A DNA stretch of 64,000 nucleotides from a virus (lineage: Duplodnaviria > Caudoviricetes), in the IMG/VR virus record IMGVR_UViG_3300002895_000002, positions 1-64,000 of that record. The stretch is one strand, 5' to 3'. This document shows positions 6,958 to 51,012 of the stretch, in pieces. The translations under genes and the position numbers were made by a program. The notes below the pieces were generated by a model. That model made no database searches. It was not told the origin of the DNA and saw only the letters and a program-made list of their open reading frames with translations. How positions within the stretch are numbered: the first letter of the stretch is position 1; each line of letters starts with the position of its first letter.

Positions 6958-6969
6958 GATTTCACCTCA

Positions 6970-7059
6970 ATAAATAGACATGGCAGGGACATCAGAGTTT
7001 CACCTCCTCTGTTGGTCATCGATTGCCGTCGTGACCTTACCTGCTATTCTATTTATAAA
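6970..7059 (+). ncRNA. HEG-associated three-way-junction element, copy E2
   Basis: P1 UGGCAGG/CCUGCUA, GA, P2 CAUCAGAG/CUCUGUUG with loop UUUCACCUC, P3 GUCA/UGAC, CUUA; opposed late promoters. Confidence 0.8.
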
Positions 7060-11681: not shown

Positions 11682-11726
11682 TAGGAGAAAGTCATGCGAA
11701 AACGCAAAGCACGAAAAAAGAATAAA

Positions 11727-11788
11727 AAAGATGTTGACAGGATAGGAAGAAGATAGTAAACTGGATTTACAAGTTGGATGGAACCGGA
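11727..11788 (+). repeat. Duplicated promoter and leader (copy 1; copy 2 at about 12160-12222)
   Basis: AAGATGTTGACAGG...GAAGAAGATAGTAAACTGGATTTACAAGTTGGATGGAACC is nearly identical in both copies. Confidence 0.85.
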
Positions 11789-12057
11789 ATACAACATCAG
11801 GTCCCAATATGGGTGCCGGTTCCAATAGTTCTCTAAAATTTCATACCCGCTCGGAAATCCGGACCAAGTGGTTGTTAACACGATAATACCACTAATGAGC
11901 AAATGGTTGGACTTGGTAACGGAATGCCTGTAAAAAATCACTGGGGGATTGGCTCACCCCCGGCACGATTTGCAAGAGGATGTTCCCTGCCGTCGGGAGC
12001 AAGGTGTTCATTGTCGATCCTCGGATGAGGGTTGATGCAAACACAGACGGCAAATTT

Positions 12058-12132
12058 GGACCGTGGGACGGCAGGTGTGGTCACTAGCCTTTCAAGCTAG
12101 TCAGATGGGATCGATACCCATACGGTCTACCA
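12058..12132 (+). tRNA. tRNA-Glu(TTC)
   Basis: CTAGC-CTTTCAA-GCTAG; CCA end. Confidence 0.85.
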
Positions 12133-12229
12133 AGAAACAAAAAGATAAAAAAGACAAAGAAGATGTTGACAGGAACTGAAGAAGATAGTAAACTGGATTT
12201 ACAAGTTGGATGGAACCAGAAGAAACTAG

Positions 12230-12720
12230 AAGACATTGTTCTGTGAAAACCAAATAGCAGTGAATACGCAGTAAGGTAAGGCCCACCGCGGGTAGTCCCA
12301 AAAGCGGCCACTAAAATGAAGAAGCTGACTTGGCCGGTTCCGAAAGGTTCCACAGCGGGTAATCTAATGGGGCGCCCGCCTCGTACAACCAAGTTGGTTC
12401 TGATTGGCAACCCGCTTTCAGCATTTACTCTTTCAAGTCATTTCGTGAATGTGGCACCTGGTTGACGCCCGGGCCTACGCTGGAAGACACGAGTGATGGG
12501 GTGAACGTCGCACCCAAAAGTTCAAGCCTTCATCCTGCGGGGTGTTTGGCTGGTCGGAAGGTTGAGCCAGCGAGTTCCTTCCGACTTCGGTCGACGTGGT
12601 GTCAAGGCAAGAATCGCCTGACTAACAAAGGGCTGGCAATTTACGGGGACGGTCGTCTAATTATAAGACATGACATGCCGCTACAGGCGAAGTCAGATCC
12701 TGGGGGAAGTGCCCAAGCAA
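12230..12720 (+). ncRNA. Candidate large structured ncRNA between tRNA genes
   Basis: No credible ORF. Nested helices TGACTTG/CAAGTCA, AGCGGGT/ACCCGCT, TTGACGCC/GGTGTCAA and GTCGGAAGG/CCTTCCGAC. Confidence 0.55.
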
Positions 12721-12801
12721 CCCCACCAAACTTTCAGATGTCGGGACGGCTAGCTGTGCACGGCAACCTCGGTTCGAGTCCGAGGATCTGAAACAATTTT
12801 C

Positions 12802-12874
12802 GGTCTATTGGTGAATGGGTATCATGTAAGCCTGTCACGCTTACGTACCGAGTTCGAGCCTCGGATAGACCGCC
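12802..12874 (+). tRNA. tRNA-Asp(GTC)
   Basis: TAAGC-CTGTCAC-GCTTA; TTCGAG T loop; CCA not encoded. Confidence 0.85.
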
Positions 12875-13023
12875 CTTGATTGTCGTGCTTATGCGTAGAG
12901 ACCTCATGTGATCCTTGCCAACCACGACCCGGCTTGGATGTACCAGATGTCTACGGTGGCTGGGTAAAGACCGGGTTTGCTGACCTTTCGTGGAGGGAAG
13001 GCGGCACTGATCACAAAAAATGA

Positions 13024-13098
13024 TGCGGGTTAGGGAAGAGGTCATCCCATCGGGTTCATATCCCGGGAATCAGTGGTTCGAATCCACTACCCGCAACC
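13024..13098 (+). tRNA. tRNA-Met(CAT), initiator-like
   Basis: TCGGG-TTCATAT-CCCGG, with three consecutive G-C pairs in the anticodon stem. Confidence 0.85.
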
Positions 13099-13214
13099 CA
13101 TAACAGAAATGGTCAGGGGAGTATGGAGTGGTCACGGCGTTGTGCCGCGGACGCCGTACAGAAACCAGACAAGTTCTGCCTGAAGGTTGGCCAGCCGGAA
13201 AGCAGGGCGTGCAT

Positions 13215-13296
13215 GTGGGTGTATAGGTCAAGGGGCGACCAGTGGGCTTCCAACCCACTCCGAAAGGGCGGAGTTCAACTCTCCACACCCGCTCCA
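13215..13296 (+). tRNA. Atypical tRNA-Gly(TCC)-like with 8-bp acceptor, 4-bp T stem and long variable arm
   Basis: GTGGGTGT/ACACCCGC, U73, CCA; AGTGGG-CTTCCAA-CCCACT; CCGAAAGG variable arm; GGAG-TTCAACT-CTCC. Confidence 0.7.
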
Positions 13297-13505
13297 AGAA
13301 ATGAAAAGATTTGTGGTCAGACGAATTGTCAACCGTAGCACTACCGCTAAGAGGGTGCAACTCCCAGAAGTAAATCGAGGTGGTATCGAAGGTTGATTCG
13401 GGCGTCATGAACCCGATATCTCTAGACCACAACCGGAATATTGCTTCAAAGCTCGATTGGTTGGCCGTGGACAACGTATAAAGGAACGGTCATTCTGTAA
13501 AAATT

Positions 13506-13580
13506 CGGTGAGTAAGTCAGTGGTAGACAGCCAGCTTTGGAGCCTGGTAGCCATCGGTTCGAATCCGATCTCACCGACCA
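13506..13580 (+). tRNA. tRNA-Pro(TGG)
   Basis: CGGTGAG/CTCACCG acceptor; TTTGGAG loop; CCA end. Confidence 0.9.
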
Positions 13581-13850
13581 GATTACTGATGATGGATAAC
13601 AGCCGAACCAGTTTGAGTCCGCGGCTCAAGATTGGTCGGGTGGCAACACATCGAGAACAAGTCATCAGCGATCCAAATAGCTGGCGGAAAAGATAAGTAA
13701 AGACTGCTACCAGCCGAGAAGTCATGCACGAGAAGTTTCTTGAACTGAATACCGTTACCAAACGCTGGAGGAAATAATCATGAATGTCTTTGCCTACTTC
13801 TTCTCCCATTAGGGAAGCCGCTAAAGGCTCCCGAGAAAGGAGAAGAGAAA

Positions 13851-21284: not shown

Positions 21285-21366
21285 GGAGTGTGATGGGACA
21301 GCGGAGTTCACCTCCTCCGTTGGTTGAAGTCCCGCAACCTCAACCTAACCATCATATCTATTTATA
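21285..21366 (+). ncRNA. HEG-associated three-way-junction element, copy E3
   Basis: P1 UGAUGG/CCAUCA, GA, P2 CAGCGGAG/CUCCGUUG with loop UUCACCUC, P3 GUUGA/UCAAC, CUAA. The + strand late promoter is degenerate in this copy. Confidence 0.8.
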
Positions 21367-25138: not shown

Positions 25139-25222
25139 GCCATGGTAGACCCGTAAGGAGCGGGAGCGGTCTGTAAAACCGTAGGGAAACCCCACCAGGA
25201 TCGTTACCTGGACATGGCACCA
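25139..25222 (+). tRNA. tRNA-Tyr(GTA)
   Basis: GCGGT-CTGTAAA-ACCGT; long variable arm; CCA end. Confidence 0.85.
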
Positions 25223-27096: not shown

Positions 27097-27172
27097 GACC
27101 AAGGCTCGGGGTCAGGGACCAGGGACGCCTCATAAGCATCCCTAGCGCGGATCGTTACCGCGACGAGCTACC
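27086..27172 (+). tRNA. tRNA-Met/Ile2(CAT) with a 7-nt tandem duplication
   Basis: AGCTCGT/ACGAGCT acceptor; CTCATAA loop; AGGGACC-AGGGACG duplication between the D and anticodon arms. Confidence 0.65.
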
Positions 27173-27250
27173 GGTGACCGTGGTGTAGAGGTTTAGCATC
27201 GTTGACTGTGACTCAACGGGGGAGGGTTCGAACCCCTCCGGTCACACCCA
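27173..27250 (+). tRNA. tRNA-His(GTG)
   Basis: GTTGA-CTGTGAC-TCAAC; encoded G-1. Confidence 0.85.
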
Positions 27251-31811: not shown

Positions 31812-32006
31812 ATGATTTTCCTCGAATACCTCAAAGAACACCAAACCAAAGGCACCCATCTCAAGGTGTTTCTCACAAGCGGAGCAATGCTTGAGGGGAA
31901 AATCAAAGGTGCTGACGAATCCGGCATCATCCTCAATGAGTGTCTGATTATGCGTGACAAGATCGTTTCAATATCACCTCCTGTCAAGGGACCAATCAAG
32001 CGATAG
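31812..32006 (+). CDS. Hfq/Sm-like RNA-binding protein
   Basis: FLEYLKE..KVFLTSGAMLEGKIKGADESGIIL...LIMRDKIVSISP aligns by eye to the Hfq Sm1/Sm2 pattern; AAGGAG RBS. Confidence 0.6.
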   Translation: MIFLEYLKEHQTKGTHLKVFLTSGAMLEGKIKGADESGIILNECLIMRDKIVSISPPVKGPIKR

Positions 32007-50910: not shown

Positions 50911-50923
50911 GACATTCACCTCA

Positions 50924-51012
50924 ATAAATAGATGTGACGGGGACAGTGGAGTTTCACCTCCTCCATTGGTTGTCAGTGCCACCTGCAACCTTACCTGTTC
51001 CTTTTATTTATC
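50924..51012 (+). ncRNA. HEG-associated three-way-junction element, copy E6
   Basis: P1 GACGGG/CCUGUU, GA, P2 CAGUGGAG/CUCCAUUG with loop UUUCACCUC, P3 GUUG/CAAC, CUUA; opposed late promoters. Confidence 0.8.

What the first reader, a model, noticed from the sequence alone, without database searches (positions are those of the whole stretch)
12230..12720. Candidate ~500-nt large ncRNA in the tRNA cluster
Seen: at least four nested long-range helices, including a perfect 9-bp one, plus GNRA and UUCG loops and no coding signal. Established: GOLLD and ROOL are large ncRNAs often found beside phage tRNA genes. I could not match RNase P, tmRNA or group I core motifs by eye, so it may be a new class.
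Basis: partly seen in the sequence, partly recalled or inferred. Interest (0 to 1): 0.65.

Follow-up and report, generated by a model that had tools for sequence, protein, structure and literature searches.

The report
Phage small-RNA cassette array
The gene-free stretch in this phage's tRNA cluster is most likely not one giant RNA but a string of five or six small RNA cassettes (two with folds supported by paired sequence changes, one shaped like a tRNA but with no working anticodon) that related phages add, drop and shuffle separately; none matches Rfam and their job is untested.

Summary
The stretch is non-coding and strongly conserved, but it is not one ~500-nt RNA. Its helices are no more than shuffles give (z -0.48), the 9-bp helix is a local hairpin, and the long-range helices are not retained in relatives.

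Related phage contigs split it into a promoter leader with a boxA-like motif and cassettes A (12266-12317), B (12318-12430), C (12431-12518), truncated D (12526-12568), E (12566-12637) and tRNA-shaped F (12645-12728). B and E are missing from one relative's cluster. A homing-endonuclease cassette separates C from D there. About 400 nt separate D from E in another.

A-D are 86-100% identical against 51% at silent sites. E keeps 23/23 pairs with 6 compensatory changes; intact D has 3. A-C are too invariant to test. Compensation stacks within cassettes, not between them. Nothing matches Rfam (GOLLD, ROOL, tmRNA, RNase P, group I). This phage's D looks fused to E by a deletion.

Best reading: small RNAs cut from one precursor, like T4 RNAC/RNAD, perhaps decoys (function about 35%). 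Transcription is unproven. The scan reported this array architecture in other phages, but not these sequences.

The parts
12166..12194 (+). Sigma-70 type promoter (TTGACA, 17 nt, TAAACT); second copy of a 75-nt repeat whose first copy is 11715-11789. Start site inferred near 12201.
   Evidence: A promoter-like site lies upstream of cassette A in both relatives too (L051:5523, L053:6076). Consensus match only.
12238..12249 (+). boxA-like antitermination motif (GTTCTGTGAAAA) in the leader; a like motif follows the first promoter near 11828.
   Evidence: a loose boxA pattern, written after seeing these sites, follows 4 of 83 promoter-like sites in the genome. Two are these RNA-cluster promoters; the other two lie in coding DNA or match poorly. 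Also after both L051 cluster promoters and one in L053. Function inferred from rRNA operon boxA (PMC6614797).
12266..12317 (+). Cassette A, about 46 nt plus an A-rich linker; small hairpins, possibly a pseudoknot. Fold not supported by covariation.
   Evidence: All four laid runs start matching at 12266. 51/52 identical to L053 and 44/51 to L051. Upstream neighbours differ in all three lineages.
12318..12430 (+). Cassette B, 113 nt; predicted closing stem 12324-12328 with 12418-12422, inner stem 12354-12360 with 12410-12416, GAAA hairpin. Optional.
   Evidence: 113/113 identical in L051, cleanly absent in L053 where A abuts C. Fold is predicted only; there is no variation to test it.
12431..12518 (+). 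Cassette C, about 88 nt; a long stem-loop and a 3' hairpin, both with 7-nt loops.
   Evidence: 87-88/90 identical in relatives. The three changes in run X1 all fall in one terminal loop, and two stem changes keep pairing. X1 has about 84 nt inserted before C; L053 has a GIY-YIG cassette after it.
12526..12568 (+). 5' third of cassette D. The intact RNA is about 145-150 nt in relatives; its 3' part is missing from this whole genome.
   Evidence: Intact D keeps 33/33 pairs with 3 compensatory changes between two relatives (structure drawn from both sequences, 62/500 shuffles reach it).
12566..12637 (+). Cassette E, 72 nt; three-way-junction RNA with a UUCG hairpin (GNRA in the relative). Overlaps the end of truncated D at the fusion point.
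   Evidence: Structure predicted from the window alone holds 23/23 pairs in L034 with 6 compensatory changes; 0 of 200,000 simulations match this. About 400 nt downstream of D in L033/L034; absent from the L053 stretch held.
12645..12728 (+). Cassette F, tRNA-shaped RNA ending in CCA. Acceptor, D and T arms are present; the anticodon arm is shortened in relatives and 11 nt longer here, with no usable anticodon loop.
   Evidence: 87.5% of cells paired, 1 compensatory pair, not above shuffles. The anticodon stem changes in step by eye. Different upstream neighbours in each lineage. Not called by ARAGORN or Rfam.
12733..12792 (+).
   Evidence: Fold z -3.1. Acceptor and T stems change in step between the window and relatives. 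In both relatives it follows D directly.

Best explanation
The stretch is part of a polycistronic stable-RNA operon of a 213-kb T4-like phage. SHOWN by comparison: it is built of separate cassettes (A-F, then G) that relatives gain, lose and reorder one by one; they are held under strong constraint; E, and less firmly D, have folds maintained by compensatory changes; F and G are tRNA-shaped without a usable anticodon. INFERRED: host sigma-70 polymerase starts near 12201, the boxA-like motif recruits Nus antitermination, and one long precursor runs through the cassettes and the tRNAs that follow. Host RNase P would cut before F, G and the tRNAs, single-strand nucleases would cut the A/U-rich linkers (about 12312-12323, 12423-12436, 12514-12525, 12638-12644), and compact small RNAs would survive, as RNAC and RNAD do from the T4 tRNA region. 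Most likely job (about 35%): acting by shape as decoys or ligands for host tRNA- and RNA-handling proteins, including anti-phage tRNA nucleases, with F and G also serving as processing tags. INFERRED: in this phage a deletion between two similar 19-nt stretches fused D to E, so this allele is a derived, probably damaged one. The confidence given is for the architecture, not the function.
For: B is absent cleanly in L053. A GIY-YIG gene with its leader lies between C and D in L053. About 84 nt are inserted between B and C in run X1. D and E are about 400 nt apart, and E and F are separated by tRNAs, in L033/L034. E is missing from the L053 stretch. G follows D in relatives but F here. Identity of A-D is 86-100% against 119/232 (51%) at four-fold sites of neighbouring genes. 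Compensatory pairs: 20 of 942 candidate pairs within cassettes against 13 of 2849 between them; the between-cassette ones are isolated singles with conflicting partners. E: 23/23 pairs kept, 6 compensatory. Promoter and boxA-like motif upstream. Precedent: T4 RNAC and RNAD (PMC3014915, PMC9697503); phage tRNAs counter tRNA-cutting defences (PMC11464382, PMC11555353, PMC12445682).
Against: Only about five lineages were found, three with full sequence, so covariation rests on two or three sequences per cassette. A, B and C are nearly invariant, so their folds are untested. One relative (P) was joined from two contigs on a 30-nt overlap. No RNA ends were observed. GOLLD tolerates tRNAs in its linker (PMC12286853), so insertions alone do not exclude one RNA. 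Homing-endonuclease co-conversion could inflate identity. Nothing here tests the decoy role.
Confidence: 0.8

Rival explanations
1. A, (B), C and D form one modular RNA of about 300-450 nt with optional domains and insertion-tolerant linkers, a new large class analogous to GOLLD; E and F are separate, and this phage carries a truncated allele.
For: The order A-C-D is the same in all lineages seen. A-C are nearly invariant, which could hide long-range pairing. GOLLD linkers can hold tRNAs. One low-depth contig from an RNA library bridges A and B, though it may be DNA or precursor.
Against: No helix between cassettes carries two compensatory pairs. B is lost without change to A or C. A 670-nt endonuclease cassette sits between C and D. 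D has a different upstream neighbour in run X8. A-C stay 86-100% identical here although most of D is gone.
Confidence: 0.12
2. The cassettes are trans-acting base-pairing small RNAs that silence host or phage mRNAs, helped by the phage's Hfq-like protein.
For: Near-invariant sequence of A-C fits constraint on primary sequence. Window 31812-32006 hits Pfam Hfq at E 2.5e-5, below the curated cut-off.
Against: No antisense match longer than 13 nt in the phage genome. No complementarity to E. coli tmRNA beyond shuffles. E is constrained in fold, not sequence. No terminator or U-tail per cassette. The host is unknown, so host targets could not be tested.
Confidence: 0.2
3. Intact D is a stripped, group I-like or otherwise catalytic RNA that helps cut the precursor.
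For: By eye, D can be drawn with a P1-like hairpin holding a U-G pair, a P3/P7-like pseudoknot, and P8- and P9-like hairpins; the P7-like helix covaries. A tRNA-shaped cassette follows it in relatives.
Against: No Rfam hit at E<=10 on short stretches holding intact D. Group I R/S, hammerhead and HDV core patterns are absent from D. No P4-P6 domain, and no bulged G-binding site in the P7-like helix. D is not inside a gene.
Confidence: 0.06
4. The cassettes are decayed tRNAs and spacer debris, kept alike only by recent gene conversion driven by homing endonucleases.
For: The whole stretch folds no better than shuffles. The cluster is full of endonuclease cassettes. F has mismatches in its acceptor and T stems here, and D is truncated.
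Against: Six compensatory changes and a UUCG-to-GNRA loop swap in E, and three compensatory changes in D, are not what decay gives. Linkers diverge while cassette cores do not. A-E give no tRNA hit.
Confidence: 0.07

Closest known systems
T4 tRNA region with the small RNAs RNAC and RNAD (PMC3014915; PMC9697503)
   Same: T4-like phage; small non-tRNA RNAs of unknown role encoded among tRNA genes; homing endonucleases in the same region.
   Different: No sequence match to cultured phages apart from an endonuclease gene. Here the cluster holds about a dozen non-tRNA cassettes rather than two, and transcription is not shown.
GOLLD and ROOL large ornate RNAs (PMC12286853)
   Same: Non-coding, phage-borne, beside tRNA genes, function unknown.
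   Different: Those are single RNAs (659 nt for ROOL env-120, often over 800 nt for GOLLD) with extensive covarying long-range structure. Here there is no Rfam hit, parts are 45-150 nt and assort independently, and no long-range covariation was found.
Phage tRNAs that counter tRNA-cutting defences (PARIS, retrons, P2-OLD; PMC11464382, PMC11555353, PMC12445682)
   Same: tRNA-shaped phage RNAs with altered anticodon arms, in a cluster that also holds normal tRNAs.
   Different: Those tRNAs still decode and replace the cut host tRNA. F and G have no usable anticodon loop, so they could only act as decoys or processing tags; untested.
tmRNA and its partial phage forms
   Same: A small pseudoknot-like element (A) is followed by a short open frame in B, loosely like PK1 plus tag.
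   Different: No tRNA-like domain, no tag-like C-terminus, resume context off by one base, B optional, no Rfam or ARAGORN hit in the genome.

Membership tests
GOLLD | Match to the Rfam covariance model, above all the conserved 3' region | tested here: not met
   No hit at gathering score or at E<=10 in the window, nor at E<=1 to 10 in relatives.
ROOL | Match to the Rfam covariance model | tested here: not met
   Same scans, no hit.
Large ornate RNA (GOLLD/ROOL kind) | One RNA of over 500 nt with covarying long-range helices | tested here: not met
   Parts assort independently, long-range helices are lost in relatives, and between-cassette covariation is only isolated singles. Power is limited: three full lineages, A-C nearly invariant.
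Large ornate RNA (GOLLD/ROOL kind) | Located beside phage tRNA genes | tested here: met
   Between tRNA-Glu 12058-12132 and tRNA-Asp 12801-12875.
Large ornate RNA (GOLLD/ROOL kind) | Abundant single transcript that forms RNA-only multimers | not testable with these tools
   Only contigs were available; they cannot show ends, strand or level.
tmRNA (one-piece, two-piece or tag-only) | tRNA-Ala-like domain, or PK1 plus a tag frame ending in a degradation motif | tested here: not met
   RF00023 finds nothing in the genome, ARAGORN finds none, and no tag-like frame lies in 11700-13800.
tmRNA (one-piece, two-piece or tag-only) | Arm complementary to the host tmRNA (tag-only phage form reported by this scan) | tested here: inconclusive
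   No complementarity to E. coli tmRNA beyond shuffles, but the true host is unknown.
RNase P RNA | Conserved regions CR-I and CR-V forming helix P4 | tested here: not met
   Patterns written from memory are absent in the window and both relatives; no Rfam hit.
Group I intron | P3-P7 core with R/S elements, a G-binding bulge, a P4-P6 domain and flanking exons | tested here: not met
   No Rfam hit; R/S patterns absent from D; the P7-like helix has no bulge and there is no P4-P6 domain.
tRNA (for F and G) | Cloverleaf with acceptor, D and T arms | tested here: met
   F: acceptor, D and T stems present in three lineages, with CCA. G: acceptor and T arm present, D arm tiny.
tRNA (for F and G) | 5-bp anticodon stem with a 7-nt loop and U33 | tested here: not met
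   F has a 4-bp stem with a 4-5-nt loop in relatives and an extended arm here; G has a 4-bp stem with a 4-nt loop. Neither is called by ARAGORN or Rfam.
T4-type tRNA-region small stable RNAs (RNAC/RNAD kind) | Conserved non-tRNA small RNA units inside the phage tRNA operon | tested here: met
T4-type tRNA-region small stable RNAs (RNAC/RNAD kind) | Detected as discrete RNAs during infection | tested here: inconclusive
   One metatranscriptome has contigs over A-B (depth 3.4) and D (depth 2.2); DNA carry-over is not excluded and no silent control stretch was laid.

The most novel reading that the evidence does not exclude
A-(B)-C-D is one new large modular phage RNA of 300-450 nt with optional domains, or intact D is a new minimal ribozyme that processes the phage's stable-RNA precursor. 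Either would be a new RNA class; this phage would carry a truncated allele.
Probability: 0.15. Interest if true: 0.75.

Novelty: new variant of a known kind. Interest (0 to 1): 0.42.

Why it matters
It removes a false candidate for a new giant RNA and leaves several small candidate RNA families that Rfam lacks, with boundaries set by natural gains and losses. What the non-tRNA RNAs of phage tRNA regions do has stayed open since T4 RNAC and RNAD. Cassettes D and E, and the anticodon-less tRNA shapes F and G, are small enough to synthesise and test directly for processing, self-cleavage and protection against tRNA-cutting defences. The impact is limited by the narrow, uncultured phage group, the unknown host and the lack of expression data.

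Tried and rejected
Rfam scans of the window and of relatives gave only tRNAs and weak sub-threshold hits. Blastn against cultured phages gave only 25-29-nt matches at E 7; a relative's cluster matched only through its endonuclease gene.

DNA pattern scans of viral, metagenome and genome collections returned nothing or chance matches that did not extend. Protein-led scans of viral contigs found nothing or capsid relatives at 33-49% identity. Fifteen such records, only three of them complete, held no match to models of D or E and only 17-21-nt matches to A-C. With no positive control this shows little.

A coding role was tested. The minus-strand frame had no homologues. The 142-codon plus-strand frame hit repeat-rich proteins at about 31% identity; I rejected this because the matched part crosses separately mobile cassettes and the frame is broken in a relative.

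Also rejected: a tmRNA tag in A+B, an anti-tmRNA arm (E. coli proxy only), an SRP S-domain look-alike in B, a Val-anticodon reading of the loop in C, and RNase P, hammerhead and HDV cores (and by eye).

The RNA-library contigs (run X8) are not counted as proof of transcription. Run X9 is probably DNA. The supplement of a large phage-RNA survey (PMC10690425) was not held, so overlap with its candidates is unchecked.

Full report
VERDICT. The stretch is conserved non-coding RNA sequence with no Rfam family, but it is a row of small cassettes rather than one 500-nt RNA. Its transcription and function are untested.

SETTING. The window is the first 64 kb of a 213,116-bp virus record rated complete. 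Its capsid protein is T4 gp23-like and at most 38% identical to cultured phages. The finding lies between tRNA-Glu (12058-12132) and tRNA-Asp (12801-12875). A sigma-70 type promoter sits at 12166-12194, the second copy of a 75-nt repeat. The host is unknown.

THE OBSERVATION. The single sequence is not unusually structured: MFE z -0.48, with 31 of 100 shuffles as stable. It has 7 Watson-Crick helices of 7 bp or more against 6.2 expected, and a 9-bp helix appears in 31% of shuffles. The perfect 9-bp helix (12553-12561 with 12577-12585) is a local hairpin. Four closed GNRA/UUCG loops against 1.4 expected is a marginal excess (p about 0.05), and two of the four lie in the leader or at the start of the tRNA-shaped gene. 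Rfam gives no hit at E<=10. A 142-codon open frame crosses the region, but it is frameshifted and stopped in a relative and found only weak hits to repeat proteins.

RELATIVES. Four runs from four studies all begin to match at 12266. Following two small neighbouring genes gave full sequence for two relatives. P is L051 plus L033/L034; L051 and L033 come from one assembly, and L051 and L034 share a 30-nt overlap, so the join is inferred. Q is L053, one contig. Run X1 adds a third pattern, seen only through the read-laying tables.

THE STRETCH COMES APART. In Q, A (12266-12317) abuts C (12431-12518), with B cleanly absent. In X1 about 84 nt are inserted between B and C. In Q a GIY-YIG endonuclease gene and its leader lie between C and D. 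D is 145-150 nt in P and Q; only its first 43 nt are here, and the rest is nowhere in this genome. E lies about 400 nt after D in P and is absent from the Q stretch held. F follows tRNAs in P and Q and has a different upstream neighbour in each lineage. G follows D in relatives but F here. What precedes A differs in all three lineages.

CONSTRAINT. A-D are 86-100% identical across lineages (B 113/113, C 87-88/90), against 119/232 identical four-fold sites in neighbouring genes. E is 71% identical; the fold predicted from the window alone keeps 23 of 23 pairs in P, with 6 compensatory changes and a UUCG-to-GNRA loop swap, which none of 200,000 simulations matched. Intact D keeps 33 of 33 pairs with 3 compensatory changes and a 9-nt insertion in a loop; this is weaker, because the structure was drawn from both sequences and 62 of 500 shuffles reach it. 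A, B and C vary too little to test their folds, though the few changes in C fall in a loop or keep pairing. F and G are tRNA-shaped with free, shortened or extended anticodon arms.

ONE RNA OR MANY. GOLLD can carry tRNAs in its linker (PMC12286853), so insertions alone do not settle this. I counted double changes that keep a helix: 20 of 942 candidate pairs within cassettes and 13 of 2849 between them. Those within cassettes stack in the same helices; those between are single and conflict with one another. The long-range helices of the window fold lose a strand in both relatives. This favours separate RNAs, with limited power for A-C.

THE FUSION. D's hairpin and E's 5' end share about 19 nt of similar sequence in register. 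Three relatives continue D with a GNRA hairpin where this phage switches into E. I infer a deletion here.

HOW IT MOST LIKELY WORKS. Inferred: transcription starts near 12201, and a boxA-like motif at 12238-12249 supports antitermination, as in rRNA operons (PMC6614797). The motif follows both RNA-cluster promoters here and cluster promoters in relatives, but only 4 of 83 promoter-like sites in the genome; the pattern was written after seeing these sites. From general knowledge of tRNA operons, RNase P and single-strand nucleases would release the tRNAs, the tRNA-shaped F and G, and the compact cassettes. T4 makes RNAC and RNAD of unknown role from its tRNA region. I put about 35% on a shape-based decoy role against host tRNA-handling or tRNA-cutting proteins, since phage tRNAs are known to counter such defences. 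I put about 20% on base-pairing regulators aided by the Hfq-like gene at 31812-32006, and about 6% on catalysis by D. The rest is unassigned.

EXPRESSION. One sediment metatranscriptome holds contigs over A-B (depth 3.4) and D (depth 2.2). Contigs show no strand, ends or level, and DNA carry-over is not excluded. This is inconclusive.

COMPARISON WITH KNOWN CLASSES. GOLLD, ROOL, tmRNA, RNase P and group I introns fail their tests. The closest kind is the phage tRNA region with extra small RNAs. Earlier notes of this scan report the same array architecture in other phages; these are unchecked notes, and look-ups by sequence found none of these cassettes. Their lead on tag-only tmRNA mimics was tested and not supported, with E. 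coli as the only proxy host.

SCORES. Interest 0.42. Novelty: new variant of a known kind, with several uncatalogued small RNA candidates. Most novel reading not excluded: one modular RNA of 300-450 nt, or a new ribozyme in D (probability 0.15, interest 0.75).

Noticed in passing
window 11980-12052, 12885-13018, 13108-13214, 13306-13437, 13569-13692: Five more non-tRNA blocks of the same cluster are conserved in relatives, with few or no compensatory changes (0, 1, 1, 3 and 0 in consensus folds) and no Rfam hit. The array is larger than the finding.
   Followed up: partly
window 11790-11975: A non-coding block of about 190 nt after the first promoter, with no counterpart in L051 or L053 and no excess folding (z 0.12).
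   Followed up: partly
window 11734-11785 and 12166-12217; L051:5261 and 5523; L053:5787 and 6076: In the window and in L051 the two cluster promoters are nearly identical to each other but differ between phages, which suggests gene conversion between tandem promoters; the L053 pair is less alike.
   Followed up: partly
L051:5590-5716 and L053:6165-6357: Each relative has its own structured block of 130-190 nt between the leader and cassette A, absent from this genome. The L053 block holds a short frame resembling a tmRNA tag, about what chance gives.
   Followed up: partly
L033:281-352 and L053:7570-7642: A third tRNA-shaped gene with a shrunken anticodon loop, flanked by two further conserved non-tRNA blocks; all are missing from this genome.
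   Followed up: partly
L035:1659-1718 and L034:1923-1985: Weak matches to the Y RNA-like family YrlA (29.7 and 28.5 bits; gathering score 69). A more distant phage contig (L026:12118-13647) encodes Ro60, but this genome has no Ro60 hit.
   Followed up: partly
window 31812-32006: Hfq-like 64-aa gene (Pfam Hfq E 2.5e-5, below cut-off), a possible partner for the small RNAs.
   Followed up: partly
window 6961-7014, 21296-21327, 50915-51011; L053:7065-7170: The leader of the endonuclease cassette that splits C from D in L053 matches a repeated element in this genome, already noted by the scan as a nuclease-gene leader.
   Followed up: partly
window 27105-27173 and 25139-25222: Further tRNA-like units missed by default ARAGORN: one before tRNA-His, seen by eye, and a second tRNA-Tyr called only at relaxed score.
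   Followed up: no
L033:3581-3664 and L035:3365-3447: ARAGORN calls a CUA-anticodon (amber-reading) tRNA at relaxed score in relatives.
   Followed up: no
L053:5193-5468: A relative encodes a ribosomal L12-like protein next to its tRNA cluster (weak Pfam hit).
   Followed up: no
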